Shown here piece after piece: positions 5,618-43,897 of a DNA stretch of 64,000 nt. This DNA is from Candidatus Zixiibacteriota bacterium (GTDB taxonomy: Bacteria > Zixibacteria > MSB-5A5 > GN15 > JACZUZ01), in contig JAJRPJ010000006.1 in the NCBI GenBank assembly GCA_024280835.1, positions 358,098-422,097 on the forward strand. Direction: 5' to 3'. The first letter of the stretch is position 1. Each line of letters begins with the position of its first letter. The notes under the pieces are model-generated. The model was not told where the DNA came from. It ran no database searches and saw only the letters and a list, made by a program, of their open reading frames with translations. The translations under genes and the position numbers were made by a program.

Positions 5618-5704
5618 AACCTTGCAAAACAGACCATTACAAGACTAAGCAAACTGAAGTACTACAAGTTTGTAGATTTTCGTTTGAAGCGCCATAATAT
5701 ACCC

Positions 5705-7726
5705 ATGAGCAAAACTACAAAACAAAATACCAATTCTCGACCAATGACACTCACCGAGAAAATTCTCGCTGATCACGCAATCGGACTCCGCCGTCCATAC
5801 GTCAAACCCGGTGACATCATCCGCATCAAAGTCGACTGGACTATCGCCTCTGAGTTAGCTTGGAATGGCATGAACCAAACTTATGAGCGGCTTGGCAGAC
5901 CACCGATTCATGACCCCGAAAAGTTCTATCTAGCGATTGATCACACTGTTGACCCAGTCACCATTGTCAATGATCCACGCACACAGCGTCTCATCCAACT
6001 GTCAAAGGCCTTTGCCTCTGAAGCCCAGTTGAAGCATTTTTATGATTCCAACGAGACGATTCTGCACACCAAGTTCTATCGCGATTTAATTCAGCCAGGT
6101 GAAATAGTTCTGGGGGCCGACTCACACACTTCTTCACATGGTGGACTCGGCGCTTTCTCCATCGGTTTAGGTGGCGCTGATATTACAGTGGCTATGGCCC
6201 TTGGTGAAAGTTGGATAGAGGTGCCTTCGGCGATTGCAATTGTCTTCAATGGCGCTTTGCCTTTTGGTGTTGGTGGCAAAGATGTAATACTCAAAACACT
6301 CGGTTTACTAAAACGCAATACCGTTGCAATGGAACGCTCAGTCGAATATATCGGTCCAGCGGTGAGTGAGTTCTCAACTGACATGCGCTTCACAATTGCA
6401 AATATGACCGCCGAACTTGGTGGACTCAATGGAATTTTTGCGCCCGATGAAGTTGTCAGCGCGTGGGTGGCGGGCCGTGAAAGTTACAATACAGGCGGCA
6501 AATATTTCAAAGCCGCTGAAGACGCCGAATATGTCGAACGATTTGAAATCGATCTGAACAACCTTTCGCCACAAATCGCAAAACCTTTCTCACCAGATAA
6601 GACAGTCGACATTGAAGAAGTTCTCGGGACTGCCTTTGATGGTTGTTTCATTGGCGCCTGCACAACTACCGAAGAGGAATTAGTCCTCGGTGGCATGATT
6701 CTCGAACTAGCTCTTGCCGATGGAATCAAAGTCAAAGAGACCACCAAACGTCTTGTAGCTCCAGGTGATTTAACCATCGAGCGCAATTTGCGTGAAGCTG
6801 GTTTACTTGATGTTTACAGAAACGCTGGCTTTAGAATAGCGCCTCCAGGGTGTCACTTGTGCTTGGGAATCGCCTCTGAGCAAGCAGGTAGTGGAGAGAT
6901 TTGGCTTTCGTCACAAAATAGAAACTATCAGAACCGCATGGGCGAAGGCTCACTAGCTTGGCTGGCTTCAGCGGCGACAGTCGCCGCCAGCGCTTTGGAT
7001 TTAACTCTGCGCGACCCCAGAGCTTTCCTTGAGCGTATCGACCGAGAGCGCTATATGCGAATCCTTGGTAGATCAGACCTTGTGCGTCTCACACCCGATG
7101 TTTCGGTGACTTACAGCGAGCCACAAATTGATGTAGTTGAAAAAACCTCGGATGATGAAAGTGTAACTTCCAAAGAATCAGAACAACCAGCGCAACCTGA
7201 GCAGGTAATAGAAGGCCGCGTGCAAATCTTTGGCGATCACATCGACACCGATGCAATTATCCCTGGTGAGTTTTGCCATCTTTCAGATATTGATGAAATC
7301 GGCGCCAAGTGTTTTCACTATGTGCGTCCTGAGTTTATTGGACGCGTTAGTGACGGTCAAACAATTGTTGTCGCTGGTGAGGCATGGGGAAGTGGTTCGT
7401 CGCGTGAACACGCAGTCTGGGCGCTCAAAGGCGCAGGTGTGCAATTAGTAATTGCCAAAGGCTATGCCTTCATTCACAAACGCAACCTAGTCAACGAAGC
7501 GCTACCATATTTACTTGTGACAGATCCAGAGTTTTACAAACTCGTCGCCGAGGATGATGAACTCTCAGTGGATCCATCAAGTGGCAAGATTCTACATGTT
7601 GCTTCAGGCAAAACATTCACTGCCGAATCTCCGAGCGCGATTGTTGTAGCTCTGACAGCCGAGGGCGGCATAGTTCCGGCCATCAAACACTACAACAAAG
7701 AAGTCTTCGCCAAACTGGCTGGCTAA
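5705..7726 (+). CDS. aconitase-family hydro-lyase with catalytic (LeuC/Acn-like) and swivel (LeuD-like) domains fused in one polypeptide
   Basis: GADSHTSSHGG, IGACTTT, GCHLCLG and SSQNRNYQNRMG motifs, so all three Fe-S Cys ligands are present. An acidic linker is followed by a LeuD-like GEAWGSGSSREHAVWAL motif. ATG 5705 is preferred over TTG 5684. Confidence 0.85.
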   Translation: MSKTTKQNTNSRPMTLTEKILADHAIGLRRPYVKPGDIIRIKVDWTIASELAWNGMNQTYERLGRPPIHDPEKFYLAIDHTVDPVTIVNDPRTQRLIQLSKAFASEAQLKHFYDSNETILHTKFYRDLIQPGEIVLGADSHTSSHGGLGAFSIGLGGADITVAMALGESWIEVPSAIAIVFNGALPFGVGGKDVILKTLGLLKRNTVAMERSVEYIGPAVSEFSTDMRFTIANMTAELGGLNGIFAPDEVVSAWVAGRESYNTGGKYFKAAEDAEYVERFEIDLNNLSPQIAKPFSPDKTVDIEEVLGTAFDGCFIGACTTTEEELVLGGMILELALADGIKVKETTKRLVAPGDLTIERNLREAGLLDVYRNAGFRIAPPGCHLCLGIASEQAGSGEIWLSSQNRNYQNRMGEGSLAWLASAATVAASALDLTLRDPRAFLERIDRERYMRILGRSDLVRLTPDVSVTYSEPQIDVVEKTSDDESVTSKESEQPAQPEQVIEGRVQIFGDHIDTDAIIPGEFCHLSDIDEIGAKCFHYVRPEFIGRVSDGQTIVVAGEAWGSGSSREHAVWALKGAGVQLVIAKGYAFIHKRNLVNEALPYLLVTDPEFYKLVAEDDELSVDPSSGKILHVASGKTFTAESPSAIVVALTAEGGIVPAIKHYNKEVFAKLAG

Positions 7727-37711: not shown

Positions 37712-37923
37712 TACTAGTTTGTTTCTTTTCCACCGTCAGATTCCATCACAAATACAAACTCGAATATACAAGATGTGGGTATAGAGGCGCCTTGACTCTA
37801 CAATCTGTCGAGTTATTGTTATTCCGAATCTAGTTTCCACTACCAATAGATATTTGCCGATAGGCATTGGGTTCTTGTATTAGGTCTTTGTCATGAAATC
37901 CGAATACTTTTCTTTTCGCGAAG

Positions 37924-38436
37924 ATGTCGTATATTAACGTCATGATGAAAGAAATTATCTGGGCTCCATGGCGATCGGGATTTATCAAAGGTAAGAAAGA
38001 GCCAGGGTGCGTATTTTGCCGTGTACAACGCAACAAAGATAAGCGCCAAGCGTTGATACTACTGAGCGCCAAACATAATTTTATTGTCATGAATAAGTAC
38101 CCATACACATCAGGACATTTACTGGTTGTTCCCAATCGGCATATCAATGCTCTTGAAAAAATGACCACTCCCGAAGCCAATGAGCATTTCAAATTGGTTC
38201 GTCGGGCGGCGGCAGTTTTGAAACGTAAATTGAAACCTGAAGGTCTCAATACGGGCATGAACCTTGGCCGCGTCGCTGGCGCGGGTGTCTTAAATCACCT
38301 GCACACGCATTTAGTGCCTCGTTGGCAAGGTGACAGCAATTTCTTACCGATTATCGGTGAGACACGCATGCAGTCGCTCGATTTGGAGCCGATGTATGAT
38401 GCGCTATACCGAGAGTTTTGTCGTAAAGCGAATTGA
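37924..38436 (+). CDS. HIT-family nucleotide hydrolase/transferase
   Basis: Histidine triad HLHTHLVPR and an N-terminal WAPWR block. The start could be the ATG at 37942. Confidence 0.85.
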   Translation: MSYINVMMKEIIWAPWRSGFIKGKKEPGCVFCRVQRNKDKRQALILLSAKHNFIVMNKYPYTSGHLLVVPNRHINALEKMTTPEANEHFKLVRRAAAVLKRKLKPEGLNTGMNLGRVAGAGVLNHLHTHLVPRWQGDSNFLPIIGETRMQSLDLEPMYDALYREFCRKAN

Positions 38437-38539: not shown

Positions 38540-40321
38540 GTGGCTCCCCCTCGGCGAATACCTACAAAAGCAGAATTACTGCGACTACAGCGTCAGTTCA
38601 AAACTGATACGCGTATCGCAGAGCGGTTAGGTAATGTCACGCCCTATCTGGTTTCCTATTGGCGCCGTAAACGCAATGTCCCCAATTACAGCGCCCCGAA
38701 ATTTTCCGAAAAAGATATCAATATCCTCTGGGAGCGCTTTGGCGATGATGATCGCTGTGGCACAGAGCTTGGTGTTTCCAAAGCAGCTTTTTATAGCTGG
38801 CGCAGACGTTATGGAATAAAAAGCAAACCAGCTTTCCTCAAATTGGAGCAAATGGAATTTCCATTTCCTGGGGATGGCGCCACTCGTTCTGTATCTAGCA
38901 ATCAAGGCACACGCCCAGCCACTCATAAGCTCATTTTCAACAAATACAGTCATCGCAAAGAGAATAACAAAACGTACAACAAGACTAAGTCCAACAAGTC
39001 CAATAATCTCAAAGGGGCTCTGACAACTGTTGTTCCCGATTTGTTGGTAATCGACGATCCTTTTACCCCTGTAATTTCTGATTACATAGAGGACAACAGC
39101 AAGCCAGCTTTGCCATCTGAGCGTTTGGCGTTTCTTCTCAACGGTAGTGGTGAGGGAGGGCAGCACAAAAGCTCTTTGAATGGCTCTGCAGTCAATGGCG
39201 CTGTTTTTGAATGGATTAGGAAAAGACAAATTCGGCAGGCCTTTAGTATGGTTGATGGATGTATGTGGGATGCTCTCTCTGAGACAGGTAGCGTCTTGCC
39301 TGGGCAATTGGTTGTTTGTCAAAGAGGACAAGAGCGTTTCGCTGGCGCTATTGGCGCTTTGGGTTGGTGGCTCGCTGACTCCGACTTGGTCTCCGTTCTT
39401 GAAACTGGCAAACTAGATATCCAAGCGCCGAATGTCGTGCGCGTAAATATCTCGGGCAAACGCTATGCGCCGATTTCCGCCACTGACATTGTTCTCAACT
39501 TGGCGAGTAACCTAACAGAGAAAAAATACACAGATGCCGTTTTGGAATACACAGGAGCGACCCTAGTGAGCATGCCGATTGCCGATAGGCAGACATTGTG
39601 TTCAATAGGATCCCTAGTCGATGTCCGTTCGGCGCTGACGCCCTGCGATACATTAACACTGCGTCACATTGCGACATTAGGTAACTGGAGTTTCGATCAA
39701 ATCTCGCCAGATAGAGATGCTGAGTTCGTAGATTCGTATCAACTCAATATTGAATCAGTCAAACCGATGGTGGCAATCAAGCATGCTGGAGCGGGAGCCA
39801 AACAAATCACTCAGCAATCACAATTGTCGCTCGAATCAAATGAAAGCTCCAACGGCTCATCTACAAATCAATCCGCTAGCGAACCACAGGCAGCCCTGAA
39901 TGTAACCTTTCATGCCGCACAGGAACTTGAGCTCCTTGAGATTGATGTTGCCTTCATTGGCGGAAATCCTGGTGGGCATTATGAATCGCTGCGAAAAGCC
40001 GCCGAAGCGCTGCATGGGAAGAAAGTTTCCAGCGGTGTGCGACTACTCGTTTCACCTATTTCGCAGAGTGTCTATTTGCGTTGCTTGAAGCGTGGAATCC
40101 TGCGCCAGTTAATTGAATCAGGAGCGATTATTCTCAATGCAGGTGTCAGCTCGTCATCTCTCGGCGCTTTTGGCATTAGCCCGAATGCCCGAATCGCTAC
40201 CGCTTCTGTCGAGCCTTTGTTCTCTTCGACTGCGCATACAGTGGATCGCTATATTGTCTCTCCGCTAACTGCGGCTGTTTCGGCGGTTAATGGACATCTG
40301 CTTGACCCACGTGGCAATTAG
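38540..40321 (+). CDS. fusion protein: two N-terminal HTH-like motifs + low-complexity linker + degenerate (Cys-less) aconitase/LeuC-like domain
   Basis: IAERLGNVTPYLVSYWRRKRNVP and CGTELGVSKAAFYSWRRRYGIK are IS3-OrfA-like HTH motifs. The C-terminal ~400 aa are colinear with LeuC, but with QRGQE for GDSHT, IGGNPGG for IGSCTNG, GVSSSSLG for GCxxCLG, and TASVEPLF for STSNRNFEGR. GTG start. Confidence 0.7.
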   Translation: MAPPRRIPTKAELLRLQRQFKTDTRIAERLGNVTPYLVSYWRRKRNVPNYSAPKFSEKDINILWERFGDDDRCGTELGVSKAAFYSWRRRYGIKSKPAFLKLEQMEFPFPGDGATRSVSSNQGTRPATHKLIFNKYSHRKENNKTYNKTKSNKSNNLKGALTTVVPDLLVIDDPFTPVISDYIEDNSKPALPSERLAFLLNGSGEGGQHKSSLNGSAVNGAVFEWIRKRQIRQAFSMVDGCMWDALSETGSVLPGQLVVCQRGQERFAGAIGALGWWLADSDLVSVLETGKLDIQAPNVVRVNISGKRYAPISATDIVLNLASNLTEKKYTDAVLEYTGATLVSMPIADRQTLCSIGSLVDVRSALTPCDTLTLRHIATLGNWSFDQISPDRDAEFVDSYQLNIESVKPMVAIKHAGAGAKQITQQSQLSLESNESSNGSSTNQSASEPQAALNVTFHAAQELELLEIDVAFIGGNPGGHYESLRKAAEALHGKKVSSGVRLLVSPISQSVYLRCLKRGILRQLIESGAIILNAGVSSSSLGAFGISPNARIATASVEPLFSSTAHTVDRYIVSPLTAAVSAVNGHLLDPRGN

Positions 40322-40452: not shown

Positions 40453-40887
40453 ATGATTATGGGTCAGCGATTGATTACTTGGACTATCGGCGCGTTATTT
40501 TCACTTGCTTTTTTTAGTGTACTAATGTCAAAACTTTCGACTACAGGCGTACAGATTCCCTCTCTCATGGCTCGACCAAATTACGTCCCTGAAACAGCAG
40601 TTCAGCGTATCGCCGCGCGGATATGGTTCGATTGTCAGAAATCAGAGGACGGAAATCCGAATCATTTCGAAGTGACCATCTACGACGGAGATACAGCTCA
40701 AGTTCGCATGCGAGAGGACATAGGCTTCCCAACTGAAATAGTTGCCATTGGAACTTACGAGCTCTCAGGTCCAGCGGTCACTCCAAGCGAATTACGCCAT
40801 CTCTTCCACTTTTATGACGGTGAAATAATCTATCTCAAGAACGGCGAAGACCTGACCCAAGTCTTTGACATGTCCTCCAACTGGTAG
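40453..40887 (+). CDS. hypothetical membrane-anchored protein
   Basis: Single N-terminal TM segment (ITWTIGALFSLAFFSVLM). No recognisable domain. Confidence 0.5.
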   Translation: MIMGQRLITWTIGALFSLAFFSVLMSKLSTTGVQIPSLMARPNYVPETAVQRIAARIWFDCQKSEDGNPNHFEVTIYDGDTAQVRMREDIGFPTEIVAIGTYELSGPAVTPSELRHLFHFYDGEIIYLKNGEDLTQVFDMSSNW

Positions 40888-40906: not shown

Positions 40907-40935
40907 TTGACAGGATTTCTGCTATGAGTTATTAT
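40907..40935 (+). promoter_or_regulatory. near-consensus sigma70-type promoter
   Basis: TTGACA (40907-40912), exactly 17 nt, TATTAT (40930-40935). Predicted start near 40942. No ORF follows. Confidence 0.55.
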
Positions 40936-40941
40936 TATTGT

Positions 40942-41825
40942 GTAGGTGGAGAATTCCCTCATGTAGTGCGCTGTGCGTTGACTATGTAGTTGTAACGGCG
41001 TTTTCAACGAGCCTCAGAGTTCAGATAAATCCACCTACAACCCCACCCTCTCAACCTGAATCTCTAGACTTAACATTTTCAAGAGTTTTTATTTGCGCTG
41101 AGTCCCTCCAGCAGACTTTTGCAAAACATTTCCTCACGCTCTGACACCTGGAAGTTGTACCGTTGCAGAATTGCGTAATTCACAGTCGCGTATGGCATTC
41201 TCGCGCATATCGCAGAGCAACCTTAGATATTTGATGTTGATTATCACCCCCGGCTAACGCCGAGTTAGTGGTCAACCATCTCTCCCTCAGGAAGGAGGCG
41301 TGTTATGAGGTAGTTGAGTGTGGTGGAGATTTTCTCTCTGTCACAAAGCGAATGTTCTCCAGTCGCAGTCTTTACGGAAATTCAACTGTGACAACTAGTT
41401 CAGAACATTCGTCGGTTGGTTGTTGCTATGCCATGTGGCAGTATTCTAAATCGGCCCAGAATCCTGTTCCACAGGCTTAGCGCGGCGCTTCAGTTGAAAC
41501 TTGCTGTAGCGCAATCGAAAGACAATCAGCCCAGTATCCCATTAGACATTAGTTGATTCTAACATGGAGTTTTTGTCGATGGGTATTTTGAGGTAGAGCT
41601 AACTACAAATGTTCGCTACGAGAGGAGTGAATATTGTAGTGTGTGGCGCTACCATTTACAAAAGCGATAGAACAAGTGTGAACCTATTTAGCCTTACTTC
41701 AGAATGGAAATACAGTTCTGAAATCGCATCTGGAAAACTCATAGCTAGGTCACACAACTAAATCGCACTTTGATCCGCAAATCGAAGCTCCACCGGAATC
41801 GAAACTGATTCCGGTGGTTTTTTTT
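40942..41825 (+). ncRNA. candidate long non-coding RNA (unknown class), bounded by the promoter at 40907 and the terminator at 41790
   Basis: No ORF longer than 70 aa in any frame. A perfect 10-bp helix pairs 40941-40950 with 41030-41039. A helix of 11 pairs joins 41348-41358 to 41402-41412 and encloses 41362-41368/41386-41392. A hairpin pairs 41698-41704 with 41716-41722. A strong terminator closes the unit. It might instead be two shorter RNAs. Confidence 0.4.
41790..41825 (+). terminator. strong intrinsic terminator
   Basis: CCACCGGAATC (41790-41800) / GATTCCGGTGG (41807-41817), 6-nt loop, then T8 (41818-41825). Confidence 0.9.
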
Positions 41826-42539: not shown

Positions 42540-43004
42540 ATGTTGGCAACATTCATGACATTCACAGGAGTCAAAGGGATTCTAACGACCCTTGGCGATA
42601 ATACCATTGGGTTTTATCGAGCGTTCCTGTCCGCAGATTCTCCTGCCACTGAGAAAATTGTTGAGAAAGTCGCCGAGCAAATCTCCGAAAAAGTCTCAGA
42701 AAAAGTCGCCGAATTGGCTGGCGTAGATTCCTCGTTTTTAACTGAACTATTTGAGAGTGTCAAAACCTTCATAGTCGATCGTTTTGGTGAGCCTGGACTC
42801 TATGCCGCCTATATTGCCACAGCGGCAATCACTCTCTTCATCCTCACCAAATTATTCAAAATCTCATTTGCAATCTTGAAACTTGTTGTTGTGCCGTCCA
42901 TAGCTTTGGCCTTCGCCGCCACACTTGTTCTGCCACAGAACTTCTTCTATTTTCTACCAGTAACCGTTTCCCTGTTTTCTATTTTGCTACTGTTTCGTGG
43001 CTAA
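42540..43004 (+). CDS. hypothetical membrane protein (amphipathic EKV-repeat N-terminus, two C-terminal TM segments)
   Basis: EKIVEKVAEQISEKVSEKVAELAG repeat. Hydrophobic stretches AAYIATAAITLFILTKLF and VVPSIALAFAATLVL...FSILLLF. Confidence 0.5.
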   Translation: MLATFMTFTGVKGILTTLGDNTIGFYRAFLSADSPATEKIVEKVAEQISEKVSEKVAELAGVDSSFLTELFESVKTFIVDRFGEPGLYAAYIATAAITLFILTKLFKISFAILKLVVVPSIALAFAATLVLPQNFFYFLPVTVSLFSILLLFRG

Positions 43005-43240
43005 CCCAGCAATACCCACTTAGCTCCCATAAGCATGGGGAGCGCCCTATCATTTCTTCATGATTTATCCTTTCTGATGTCGCGCTCCTGTCGCCGTATC
43101 TGACTGTGGTTTAGCTGCTTGCAAATATTATGTCAGCATGGCGCCACCCTTGCACTAATACATTTCGATTACATCTGAAACACGATCATTTGAGCGTCAA
43201 TAAACAACTTCGACTCAGGTGTTTTGAGGGGAATATCGAA

Positions 43241-43897
43241 ATGACTGCACAAGAAATAACCACACAGAACCAGACGACAGCCAAGTCAAAAAGCCGTCAG
43301 AAAAAGAGCGCAACTCCAGCCATTCCAAATGGAACCAGAGGGCGCGTTCGACGCAAAGCTAACAGCGCTTCAAATTCACAAAACTCTGCTACTCAACAAG
43401 AGATAGAATCTCACGAAAGCGCTCTCAGCAATGCAGAGACTGTCTGTATCAACTGTGGCGGCGATTTGTTATTCCTTGAGGAAGCGCGCTTGTGTCCCAA
43501 GTGCAACAGTGAAGCGACTGTCACTATGCTCAGCGAATACGCGCCAGTTATTATGGAGTCAGCTGAAATGGATCGTGGCTTTATCGAATGCCCAGGAGCA
43601 ACCATCTTTGATTCAGAAACTGGTGAGCCGCTTGAAGGCGCGGTCTTTGGCGATAACACCAATGAGGGCTACAAAGTCAAGCATATGAAGTGGCCAGTTT
43701 TCCCTCCCGGGCACAAAAAACGCCGCATGATACCCACTGAGGCCTTTGGTAAGATACGCCGCTGTCGTACCTGTCAGGACTATACGGTGCGAATGAGACG
43801 CAAGGAGGGGGCTGATTTTTGTGCTCCTAGCTCCAAATTCCCTCGCCGCAAACGGCTCAAAAGTGTCGATTTGGTTAGTCATCGTCAGCCACTTTAA
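43241..43897 (+). CDS. hypothetical basic protein with zinc-ribbon CxxC pairs
   Basis: CINCGG...CPKCN and CRTCQD...FCAP. Lys/Arg-rich ends. ATG 43241 follows GAGGGG. The track start at 43130 is less likely. Confidence 0.5.
   Translation: MTAQEITTQNQTTAKSKSRQKKSATPAIPNGTRGRVRRKANSASNSQNSATQQEIESHESALSNAETVCINCGGDLLFLEEARLCPKCNSEATVTMLSEYAPVIMESAEMDRGFIECPGATIFDSETGEPLEGAVFGDNTNEGYKVKHMKWPVFPPGHKKRRMIPTEAFGKIRRCRTCQDYTVRMRRKEGADFCAPSSKFPRRKRLKSVDLVSHRQPL

What the first reader, a model, noticed from the sequence alone, without database searches (positions are those of the whole stretch)
38540..40321. HTH-HTH fused to a catalytically dead, cysteine-less aconitase/LeuC-like domain (possible ligand-sensing regulator)
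The C-terminal ~400 aa align colinearly with isopropylmalate isomerase large subunit/aconitase catalytic domains, but every catalytic element is replaced. GDSHT becomes QRGQE (about 39320-39334). IGSCTNG becomes IGGNPGG (about 39950-39976). GCxxCLG becomes GVSSSSLG (about 40135-40165). STSNRNFEGR becomes TASVEPLFSS. All three [4Fe-4S] cysteine ligands are therefore gone while the fold-defining blocks remain (LPGQLVV, ATDIVL, VSPISQSVYLRCLKRGILRQLIESGAII, YIVSPLTAAVSAVNG). The N-terminus carries two copies of an IS3-OrfA-like helix-turn-helix ending in SYWRRKRN / YSWRRRYG, then a Lys/Asn-rich linker. The same window also encodes an intact aconitase-family enzyme (5705-7726), so this protein is a diverged paralogue-type pseudoenzyme. 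By analogy with aconitase/IRP moonlighting, it may use the tricarboxylate-binding fold as a sensor coupled to DNA binding.
Basis: partly seen in the sequence, partly recalled or inferred. Interest (0 to 1): 0.7.

Follow-up and report, generated by a model that had tools for sequence, protein, structure and literature searches.

The report
DNA-binding protein with dead aconitase-like domain
This gene encodes two DNA-binding helix-turn-helix modules fused to an enzyme-like (isopropylmalate isomerase/aconitase) domain that has lost its iron-sulfur cluster and catalytic residues; it belongs to an undescribed family found mainly in genomes labelled Zixibacteria and always sits directly behind the same HIT nucleotide-enzyme gene, so it is probably a regulator built from a retired enzyme.

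Summary
ORF 38540-40321 (593 aa) has a C-terminal aconitase-family domain (PF00330, E=1.7e-43). Its model superposes on the M. jannaschii LeuC large subunit (TM 0.85). All three cluster cysteines and the DSHT and NRNFxGR catalytic blocks are replaced. The basic N-terminus (pI 10) folds as two three-helix HTH units.

The context changes the picture. The protein is an ortholog in a family found in 153 species genomes, mostly labelled Zixibacteria. In 80 of 80 loci examined an Ap4A-phosphorylase-like HIT gene lies directly upstream. The HTH module is about 80% identical across the family and the enzyme-like domain about 45%. A few members keep a complete LeuC/HacA active site, most have lost it in different ways, and only 7 of 80 keep the cysteine triad.

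In the window's clade the former active-site positions are re-fixed with new residues and are more conserved than the rest of the domain (P=0.003). Elsewhere in the family they are less conserved than the rest of the domain.

Best reading: a bipartite-HTH DNA-binding regulator whose effector or scaffold domain is an exapted LeuC-like pseudoenzyme, co-expressed with the HIT enzyme. DNA binding, target and ligand are inferred. The IRP-like or tricarboxylate-sensing analogy is not supported.

The parts
38540..40321 (+). Whole gene: HTH-HTH plus LeuC-like pseudoenzyme, 593 aa, GTG start, stop codon included
   Evidence: the identical protein P0001 is in the public collection
38561..38677 (+). HTH unit 1 (residues 8-46, IPTKAELLRLQRQFKTDTRIAERLGNVTPYLVSYWRRKR); Y40 W41 R42 R43 K44 are invariant in the family
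   Evidence: AF2 helices 10-20, 23-30 and 35-44; invariant columns; weak match to NCBIfam NF046037 at residues 25-50
38678..38704 (+). Short basic inter-HTH linker (residues 47-55, NVPNYSAPK); P53 and K54 are conserved
   Evidence: resembles the linker of bipartite paired-like DNA-binding domains (Mos1 hit; inference)
38705..38815 (+). HTH unit 2 (residues 56-92, FSEKDINILWERFGDDDRCGTELGVSKAAFYSWRRRY); F55 (last residue of the preceding linker) plus W64 G68 D70 G74 W87 R88 R89 Y91 are invariant
   Evidence: AF2 helices 57-67, 70-77 and 81-90; HTH_23 and HTH_Tnp_1 sub-threshold hits at residues 76-102
38828..38860 (+). Invariant helix KPAFLKLEQME (residues 97-107) after HTH2; role unknown (docking or dimerisation is inferred)
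   Evidence: P97 L100 K101 L102 E103 Q104 are invariant; helix 98-105
38861..38908 (+). Flexible interdomain linker (residues 108-123)
   Evidence: pLDDT below 50 at residues 105-117; variable columns
38909..40318 (+). Aconitase-fold domain equivalent to the LeuC/HacA large subunit (domains 1-3 only; no swivel/LeuD domain)
   Evidence: in P0068 the NCBIfam LeuC/HacA model starts at residue 124
38960..39007 (+). Lineage-specific Asn/Lys-rich low-complexity insertion (residues 141-156)
   Evidence: gap in 118 of 120 homologs; low pLDDT
39320..39334 (+). QRGQE in place of the catalytic (T)DSHT; in this clade C260 R262 G263 E265 R266 F267 are fixed
39794..39907 (+). Gln/Ser/Asn-rich insertion (residues 419-456), restricted to the clade
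   Evidence: gap in about 109 of 120 homologs; pLDDT below 50
39956..39976 (+). IGGNPGG in place of IGSCTNG (first cluster cysteine becomes Asn)
40142..40165 (+). GVSSSSLG in place of GCxxCxG (second and third cluster cysteines become Val and Ser)
40199..40228 (+). TASVEPLFSS in place of T(S/T)NRNFxGR (substrate-binding Asn and Arg residues lost)
37924..38436 (+). Upstream partner gene: HIT-family, Ap4A-phosphorylase/ATP-adenylyltransferase-like. The likely true start is ATG 37943. No terminator-like site in the HIT-target gap.
   Evidence: 3ano, E=5e-28; HIT gene present directly upstream in 80 of 80 loci and in the loci (no terminator-like site in the HIT-target gap)
37931..37936 (+). TATATT -10 box 6 nt before ATG 37943: promoter of a probably leaderless HIT-plus-target transcript
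   Evidence: the same arrangement is seen in most of the 85 aligned upstream regions

Best explanation
The gene encodes a DNA-binding, probably transcriptional, regulator built from a retired enzyme.

Shown:
- The N-terminal 107 residues are a basic, bipartite pair of three-helix HTH units joined by a short conserved basic linker.
- The C-terminal 470 residues keep the three-domain fold of a LeuC/HacA-type isopropylmalate/homoaconitate isomerase large subunit.
- This domain cannot bind a [4Fe-4S] cluster or carry out the dehydratase reaction.
- The gene is the local ortholog of a single-locus family that always lies directly behind a HIT (Ap4A-phosphorylase-like) gene. The two genes often overlap by 4 bp, and a -10 box sits just before the HIT start codon.
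- Selection acts hardest on the HTH module, next on the fold, and family-wide hardly at all on the old active site.
- The ancestor had an intact active site, because a few living members still do. It was lost in parallel in most lineages.

Inferred:
- The tandem HTH binds a bipartite DNA site in the manner of paired-like/Tc1-mariner DNA-binding domains.
- The pseudoenzyme domain acts as the effector, scaffold or oligomerisation module.
- In members that keep the cysteines, the domain may hold a cluster.
- In the window's clade a re-fixed pocket (W243, C260, R262, G263, E265, R266, F267, G475, P477, G478, D537, L541, E558) may bind a new ligand or simply fill the cluster cavity.
- The regulator acts together with, or on, the co-transcribed HIT enzyme.
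For: Fold and loss of catalysis:
-.
- NF001614 score is 186 bits against a cutoff of 385.
- There is a graded series of scores: P0068 537, P0035 377, P0108 352, window 186, P0128 111.

HTH nature:
- AF2 gives two tri-helical bundles.
- The best Foldseek match is the bipartite HTH of Mos1 transposase, covering all 112 residues at probability 0.95.
- 20 of 20 members give sub-threshold HTH_Tnp_1 hits and 19 of 20 give sub-threshold HTH_23 hits.
- A profile search links the unit to tandem arrays that hit HTH_23 at E=1e-28 and NF046037 at E=5e-22.
- Free-standing HTH-HTH homologs exist (P0162 and P0164).
- The N-terminal pI is 10.2, family median 9.9.

Orthology and spread:
- 142 or more protein clusters and 153 GTDB species genomes.
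- Conserved block M48 peptidase, CNNM, VTT, CDF, RlmD, HIT, target.
- HIT lies directly upstream in 80 of 80 loci.

Selection pattern:
- Pairwise identity is about 0.80 in the N-terminus and 0.42-0.49 in the aconitase-like domain.
- Catalytic-site columns score 0.38 against a domain mean of 0.58 in the main family (P<5e-5), and 0.745 against 0.617 in the window clade (P=0.003).
- 7 of 80 species keep three cysteines and 31 of 80 keep none.
- Members with a canonical site and members with a degenerate site occupy the same locus.
Against: - No DNA target was found. Apart from the promoter itself, no motif is shared family-wide upstream of the operon. The only candidate is a clade-restricted 14-mer.
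- The HTH hits to curated models are below threshold for this protein.
- The Foldseek E-value for the N-terminal model is only 0.06.
- About 80% identity across the family's genomes is unusually high for a transcription-factor DNA-binding domain. This may point to a conserved protein or RNA partner instead.
- A ligand-sensing role for the pseudoenzyme domain has no direct support. Family-wide, the pocket is unconstrained.
- No member has been studied experimentally.
Confidence: 0.55

Rival explanations
1. It is a non-transcriptional partner or adaptor of the HIT enzyme. The pseudoenzyme domain binds and regulates the co-translated Ap4A-phosphorylase-like protein, or substitutes for a lost subunit. 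The HTH module tethers the complex to the nucleoid, or is itself used for protein contacts.
For: The HIT-then-target gene order is strict, with frequent 4-bp overlap that suggests translational coupling and fixed stoichiometry. The N-terminus is extremely conserved and includes an invariant helix at residues 97-107 outside the HTH units. Family-specific invariant basic residues R375, K518 and R522 are absent from M. jannaschii LeuC.
Against: No interaction evidence could be computed. Gene adjacency is equally expected for a regulator and the gene it regulates or is co-regulated with. In the window and its closest relatives the two genes are separated by about 100 bp rather than overlapping.
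Confidence: 0.2
2. It is an IRP1/apo-aconitase-like RNA-binding post-transcriptional regulator, with the empty aconitase cleft clamping an RNA element.
For: There is precedent in the superfamily: IRP1, IRP2 and bacterial apo-aconitases (my own knowledge). IRP structures appear among the Foldseek hits.
Against: Domain 4 and the hinge linker that form the IRE clamp are absent, because the protein ends with domain 3. There is no cluster-dependent switch in this protein. A dedicated tandem HTH is present. No structured RNA family lies next to the gene.
Confidence: 0.08
3. It is still an enzyme, either a LeuC/HacA-type isomerase or a new chemistry in the remodelled pocket, with an N-terminal autoregulatory HTH in the manner of PutA or BirA.
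For: A few family members (P0047, P0068, P0063) keep 12-14 of 14 catalytic residues and pass the LeuC/HacA subfamily cutoffs. The window clade's pocket is under purifying selection. L059 has a LeuD-like gene immediately downstream.
Against: In the window protein 0 of 14 catalytic or cluster residues survive. No LeuD partner lies within the 64-kb window apart from the fused domain of the intact enzyme. The LeuD-like genes found near some loci are themselves degenerate, lacking GCGSSREHA. Only 7 of 80 species keep the cysteine triad.
Confidence: 0.05
4. It is a decaying pseudogene-like remnant with no function.
For: Loss of all catalytic residues and two low-complexity insertions.
Against: The reading frame is intact in 153 species genomes. 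The N-terminus is about 80% identical across the family, synteny is fixed, the fold is predicted with high confidence (pLDDT 86.9), and the pocket is re-fixed in the clade.
Confidence: 0.02

Closest known systems
Archaeal-type isopropylmalate/homoaconitate isomerase large subunits (LeuC/HacA; M. jannaschii MJ0499 and MJ1003, PDB 4kp1/4nqy/4kp2; NCBIfam NF001614, TIGR02086, TIGR01343)
   Same: Same three-domain fold (TM 0.85), colinear alignment, and conserved structural motifs (xKIL start, E336, R350, ADKDAxY, SPxTAAASA). The least-diverged family members still pass the subfamily cutoffs.
   Different: No cysteine ligands, no DSHT, no NRNFxGR, and no adjacent LeuD. A 123-residue HTH-HTH extension is added. 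Family-specific invariant residues (R375, K518, R522) are present. The score is far below the cutoffs (186 against 385 bits).
IRP1/IRP2 and bacterial apo-aconitases (AcnA, AcnB, CitB) as moonlighting nucleic-acid binders
   Same: A member of the aconitase superfamily used for regulation rather than catalysis. IRP2 is likewise permanently inactive (my own knowledge).
   Different: Those proteins bind RNA with the aconitase body itself, using domain 4 and the hinge. This protein lacks domain 4 and carries a separate tandem HTH, so nucleic-acid recognition, if any, is delegated to the N-terminus and is probably directed at DNA.
One-component regulators whose effector domain is an enzyme fold or pseudoenzyme (NrtR with a Nudix-like domain, MocR/GabR with an aminotransferase-like domain, ROK repressors Mlc/NagC with a sugar-kinase-like domain, RpiR with a SIS domain, PutA, BirA). 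This comparison rests on my own knowledge.
   Same: Architecture of HTH plus an enzyme-derived domain. The DNA-binding part is more conserved than the effector part. Catalysis is lost.
   Different: As far as the libraries and literature searched here show, an aconitase-fold effector has not been described. The DNA-binding part is a tandem bipartite HTH rather than a single (winged) HTH. Active-site decay is still visible as a graded series among living orthologs.
Bipartite paired-like HTH DNA-binding domains of Tc1/mariner (Mos1) and IS630/IS3 transposases (Pfam HTH_23, HTH_Tnp_1) and NCBIfam NF046037 'carph-isopro' domain
   Same: Two three-helix units with a W-R-R-K/R motif at the end of the recognition helix and a short basic linker. 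Mos1 is the best structural match. Profile neighbours hit HTH_23 and NF046037 strongly.
   Different: No transposase catalytic domain. The gene sits at a fixed chromosomal locus. The window protein is below the thresholds of all these models.

Membership tests
Aconitase superfamily (Pfam PF00330) | Whole-protein score above the gathering cutoff (28.7 bits) | tested here: met
   149.8 bits, E=1.7e-43, residues 226-585
Aconitase superfamily (Pfam PF00330) | Three-domain alpha/beta fold of the large subunit | tested here: met
   AF2 pLDDT 86.9; Foldseek against 4kp1 gives E=1.8e-34, TM 0.85
Functional LeuC/HacA large subunit (NF001614, TIGR02086, TIGR01343) | Score at or above the curated cutoff | tested here: not met
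   186 against 385, 178 against 410, and 168 against 386 bits
Functional LeuC/HacA large subunit | Three cysteine ligands of the [4Fe-4S] cluster (IGSCTNG and GCxxC) | tested here: not met
   The ligands are replaced by N476, V536 and S539; there is no conserved alternative triad
Functional LeuC/HacA large subunit | Catalytic and substrate-binding residues (HQ, DSHT, NRNFxGR) | tested here: not met
   0 of 14 key positions retained
Functional LeuC/HacA large subunit | Partner small subunit (LeuD/HacB) encoded alongside | tested here: not met
   No LeuD-like ORF at the locus or elsewhere in the window apart from the fused domain of the intact enzyme at 7217-7690
IRP1-type RNA-binding aconitase | Domain 4 plus hinge linker forming the RNA clamp | tested here: not met
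   All alignments end at the end of domain 3; the protein stops at residue 593
IRP1-type RNA-binding aconitase | Cluster-dependent switch between enzyme and RNA binder | tested here: not met
   No cluster ligands
IRP1-type RNA-binding aconitase | Specific binding to a stem-loop RNA | not testable with these tools
   Needs binding assays; no Rfam element at the locus
Homeodomain-like HTH (Pfam HTH_23, HTH_Tnp_1) | Score above the gathering cutoff | tested here: not met
   20.6 against 24.6 and 17.6 against 24.1 bits for the isolated N-terminus. 20 of 20 (HTH_Tnp_1) and 19 of 20 (HTH_23) family members give consistent sub-threshold hits
Homeodomain-like HTH (Pfam HTH_23, HTH_Tnp_1) | Three-helix HTH fold; homology chain to bona fide members | tested here: met
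   Two tri-helical bundles. The profile finds P0146, P0147 and P0148, which hit HTH_23 at E=1e-25 to 1e-44
NCBIfam NF046037 'carph-isopro' domain | Score of at least 38 bits | tested here: not met
   15 bits, E=0.021 at residues 25-50. Profile neighbours P0146 and P0148 score 78 and 63 bits
Paired-like bipartite DNA-binding domain (Mos1, Tc3, Pax) | Two HTH subdomains joined by a short linker and superposable on solved examples | tested here: inconclusive
   5hoo_B is the top hit over 112 columns at probability 0.95, but E=0.06 and TM 0.38, because the relative orientation of the two units is free
One-component transcription regulator | Sequence-specific DNA binding and signal-dependent control of a promoter | not testable with these tools
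   Only indirect evidence: basic HTH module, operon context, and no shared operator found

The most novel reading that the evidence does not exclude
The HIT gene and the HTH-pseudo-LeuC gene together form a conserved, previously unrecognised regulatory switch. A DNA-binding aconitase-fold protein began as an Fe-S (iron, oxygen or NO) sensing enzyme-regulator. It then lost the cluster repeatedly and now reads out a nucleotide signal made or removed by its partner enzyme, for example Ap4A or related dinucleoside polyphosphates. This would be a DNA-level counterpart of IRP1, with an evolutionary series from holo-enzyme to pseudoenzyme preserved among living orthologs.
Probability: 0.15. Interest if true: 0.8.

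Novelty: new variant of a known kind. Interest (0 to 1): 0.6.

Why it matters
Regulators built from enzyme folds are known, but none uses the aconitase/LeuC fold together with a DNA-binding module. The only regulatory aconitases known (IRPs and apo-AcnA/AcnB/CitB) bind RNA with the enzyme body itself.

This family is conserved in more than 150 species genomes of an uncultured lineage (mostly labelled Zixibacteria). It is fixed next to an Ap4A-phosphorylase-like gene. Its DNA-binding module is better conserved than the housekeeping genes beside it, which suggests an important and completely unstudied function.

The family also offers a rare natural series in which orthologs at one locus range from a complete Fe-S isomerase active site to none. 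One clade has re-fixed the pocket with new residues. This makes the family a tractable model for how an enzyme becomes a pseudoenzyme.

In practice, current annotations such as '3-isopropylmalate dehydratase large subunit' or 'aconitase family protein' for these genes are misleading for metabolic reconstructions of these genomes.

Tried and rejected
1. Derivation from the window's intact aconitase gene was rejected: 20% identity over 168 aa, against 32% over the full length to family member P0068.
2. An alternative cysteine triad or shifted catalytic residues were rejected by the column-by-column alignment.
3. Recent gene conversion from a true leuC as the source of the canonical active sites in P0047 and P0068 was rejected. 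P0068 keeps the family-specific residues (SRRYF, ALKKGLIR) and the same HIT locus.
4. A search for a shared operator upstream of the HIT gene in 85 loci found only the promoter, a -10 box 6-8 nt before the ATG. The 14-mer CTACAATCTGTCGA is conserved only in the window's three closest relatives and occurs once in the window, which is no more than chance expectation.
5. Membership of a known anti-phage defence system was rejected. There is no PADLOC hit for the protein, and the HIT gene gives only a generic HIT match.
6. Literature searches (Zixibacteria plus aconitase; aconitase plus pseudoenzyme plus HTH; 'carph-isopro'; isopropylmalate isomerase plus DNA-binding fusion) found nothing relevant.
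7. A sequence-profile search of the N-terminus against PDB gave only chance-level hits.
8. The look-up of the window's own contig failed, so the source assembly is not identified. The closest GTDB species genomes are 65-67% identical.
9. DnaA boxes in the ORF-poor region downstream are not enriched.
Full report
**Observation.**

- Pfam's Aconitase model matches residues 226-585 at E=1.7e-43.
- The best NCBIfam models are the archaeal-type LeuC/HacA large-subunit families, all far below their curated cutoffs: NF001614 gives 186 against 385 bits.
- The closest solved structures by sequence are the M. jannaschii isopropylmalate and homoaconitate isomerase large subunits, 4kp1/4nqy and 4kp2.
- An AlphaFold2 model built on 82 family sequences has mean pLDDT 86.9. 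It superposes on 4kp1 with Foldseek E=1.8e-34 and TM 0.85.

| Canonical motif | Window protein | Nucleotides |
|---|---|---|
| DSHT | QRGQE | 39320-39334 |
| IGSCTNG | IGGNPGG | 39956-39976 |
| GCxxCxG | GVSSSSLG | 40142-40165 |
| T(S/T)NRNFxGR | TASVEPLFSS | 40199-40228 |

The three cluster cysteines are N476, V536 and S539. The six cysteines that remain do not form a conserved alternative triad.

Two details need correcting.

- The Lys/Asn-rich stretch (residues 141-156) is not the interdomain linker. It is a lineage-specific low-complexity insertion inside the enzyme-like domain, which begins near residue 124. It is absent from 118 of 120 homologs.
- A second Gln/Ser/Asn-rich insertion (residues 419-456) is restricted to the window's clade.

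**The N-terminus.**

A separate model of residues 1-112 (pLDDT 84) gives two three-helix bundles, at 10-20/23-30/35-44 and 57-67/70-77/81-90, followed by a helix at 98-105.

- Its best PDB match, over all 112 residues, is the bipartite HTH DNA-binding domain of the Mos1 mariner transposase (probability 0.95, E=0.06).
- The next matches are LuxR-, Fis- and GcrA-type DNA-binding domains.
- All 20 aligned N-termini give consistent but sub-threshold hits to HTH_Tnp_1, and 19 of 20 to HTH_23.

A profile of the module searched against 1.84 billion representative proteins found 247 proteins.

- Besides more HTH-plus-aconitase-like proteins, it found tandem arrays of 3-7 copies of the same roughly 50-residue unit. 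These hit HTH_23 at E=1e-25 to 1e-45 and NCBIfam NF046037 ('carph-isopro' domain) at E=5e-22.
- It also found free-standing HTH-HTH proteins of 121-136 aa.

The module is basic, with pI 10.2 against a family median of 9.9. The enzyme-like domain is neutral. The HTH-HTH reading is therefore well supported, although this particular protein is below the cutoffs of all curated HTH models.

**What the surroundings and relatives show.**

The protein is not an oddity of this genome.

- At least 142 protein clusters of 530-610 aa share the whole architecture.
- 153 GTDB species genomes encode a relative. Most are labelled Zixibacteria or GN15. Some carry submitter labels such as Ignavibacteriales, Calditrichota or FCB group, which I did not verify.
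- More diverged forms of 483-529 aa, whose aconitase signature is almost erased, keep the same N-terminus. In the one locus I inspected they also keep the same neighbours.

In every locus inspected, a HIT-family gene lies immediately upstream on the same strand, often overlapping by 4 bp. This holds for seven individually inspected loci and for 80 of 80 species loci. The HIT gene's closest solved relatives are Ap4A phosphorylases (3ano, E=5e-28).

In five of the seven individually inspected loci and about a fifth of the 80 species loci (RlmD detected upstream in 18 of 80), the upstream block M48 peptidase, CNNM/CorC, VTT, CDF, RlmD, (DUF885), HIT, target is conserved. The downstream genes vary.

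In most of the 85 aligned upstream regions, a TATATT-like -10 box sits 6-8 nt before the HIT start codon. This suggests a leaderless HIT-plus-target transcript. In the window, no terminator-like site was found in the 103-bp gap between the two genes.

The intact aconitase-family gene at 5684-7726 is real. It has a fused large and small subunit and all motifs present. It is only 20% identical over 168 aa to the target, so it is a distant superfamily relative and not the source.

**Pattern of selection.**

Mean pairwise identity is about 0.80 for the HTH module and 0.42-0.49 for the enzyme-like domain. The HTH module is better conserved than the adjacent HIT gene (40-55% identity) or RlmD gene (46-51% identity).

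The catalytic residues form a graded series among orthologs:

- P0047 keeps 14 of 14 key residues and P0068 keeps 13 of 14. P0068 still passes the LeuC/HacA subfamily cutoffs at 537 bits.
- Scores then fall through 377 and 352 to 186 for the window and 111 for P0128.
- Canonical and degenerate members sit at the same locus.
- P0068 keeps the family-specific residues, so its intact site is ancestral rather than re-acquired.
- Among 80 species representatives, only 7 keep all three cysteines and 31 keep none. The replacements differ from lineage to lineage, which means parallel loss.

Conservation at 28 former active-site positions, compared with the rest of the domain:

| Group | Site conservation | Domain mean | P |
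|---|---|---|---|
| Main family | 0.38 | 0.58 | <5e-5 |
| Window clade (15 sequences, 44-73% identical) | 0.745 | 0.617 | 0.003 |

In the main family the site is significantly less conserved than the domain. In the window's clade it is significantly more conserved and carries a new fixed set of residues: W243, C260, R262, G263, E265, R266, F267, G475, P477, G478, D537, L541 and E558.

**Mechanism.**

Shown:
- The protein has a bipartite basic HTH module on a structurally intact aconitase-fold body that has no cluster and no catalytic residues.
- It lies in an apparent operon with a HIT enzyme.
- The strongest constraint falls on the HTH module.

Inferred:
- The module binds a bipartite DNA site, with the conserved basic linker (residues 47-55) between the two recognition units, as in paired-like domains.
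- The pseudoenzyme body is the effector, scaffold or oligomerisation part.
- The invariant helix KPAFLKLEQ(L/M)E docks the two parts or mediates dimerisation.
- The protein regulates, or acts with, the HIT enzyme.

I give this reading about 0.55.

The main rival (0.2) is a non-transcriptional partner or adaptor of the HIT enzyme. The tight gene coupling and the unusually high conservation of the N-terminus favour it.

An IRP-like RNA-binding role (0.08) is unlikely. Domain 4 and the hinge are missing, and a dedicated HTH module is present.

Residual enzymatic activity (0.05) is very unlikely for the window protein, although it is possible for the few canonical orthologs.

**Comparison with what is known.**

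- The protein is a member of the aconitase superfamily by sequence and fold.
- It fails every feature that defines a functional LeuC/HacA subunit: score cutoff, cysteine triad, catalytic residues and LeuD partner.
- It works more like the enzyme-derived effector domains of one-component regulators (NrtR, MocR/GabR, ROK repressors; my own knowledge). An aconitase fold in that role, paired with a tandem HTH, is not described in the libraries or the literature searched.
- Public annotations call these proteins 'aconitase family protein' or '3-isopropylmalate dehydratase large subunit (modular protein)'.

**Verdict.**

The regulator idea is plausible. The analogies to a local paralogue, to tricarboxylate sensing and to IRP are not supported.
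- The finding is a new variant of a known kind.
- Interest is 0.6.

Noticed in passing
window 40907-41825 (+): An ORF-poor transcription unit lies downstream of the gene. It has a near-consensus promoter (TTGACA-17-TATTAT, 40907-40935) and a strong intrinsic terminator (41790-41825), both conserved in relatives L004 and L009. A roughly 230-nt block at 41255-41480 is highly conserved, has indels that are not multiples of three, and the terminator stem shows compensatory changes. This looks like an undescribed non-coding RNA. There is no Rfam, tRNA or tmRNA match.
   Followed up: partly
window 37924-37945; 85 aligned loci: The HIT gene's ATG is preceded at 6-8 nt by a TATATT/TATAAT box in most of the 85 aligned loci, which implies a leaderless mRNA. 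In the window this makes 37943, not 37924, the likely HIT start.
   Followed up: partly
window 37798-37811: The 14-mer CTACAATCTGTCGA upstream of the HIT gene is conserved in the window's closest relatives (L004/L010, L009) within otherwise diverged intergenic DNA. It overlaps a predicted TTGACT-16-TATTGT promoter. It is a candidate cis-element, but it occurs only once in the window and is not above chance expectation.
   Followed up: partly
L059 7732-8232; L023 3892-4383; L039 3071-3559; L014 2342-2830: Degenerate LeuD-like small-subunit genes (the GCGSSREHA motif is lost) occur immediately downstream of the HTH-LeuC-like gene in one lineage. In several other lineages they lie 1-3 kb upstream on the opposite strand, next to a DNA methyltransferase gene. 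This may be a pseudo-LeuD partner. None was found in the window.
   Followed up: partly
P0146, P0147, P0148, P0159, P0163; P0162, P0164 (L008 6001-6366): The same HTH unit occurs as arrays of 3-7 tandem copies in otherwise domain-less proteins, once fused to an archaeal TFIIB (P0163), and as a free-standing HTH-HTH protein next to a flagellar gene cluster (L008). This repeat family corresponds to NCBIfam NF046037 'carph-isopro'.
   Followed up: partly
window 5684-7726 (+): An intact fused large-plus-small-subunit aconitase/homoaconitase-type enzyme (680 aa). It scores below the equivalog cutoffs, so its substrate (aconitate, homoaconitate or isopropylmalate) is not assigned.
   Followed up: partly
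window 40453-40887 (+) and 42540-43897 (+): Predicted proteins with no Pfam or NCBIfam match lie downstream of the target (144, 154 and 255 aa). The first has a hydrophobic N-terminus. A similarly placed ORF of similar length (141 aa; similarity not tested) follows the target in relative L004.
   Followed up: no
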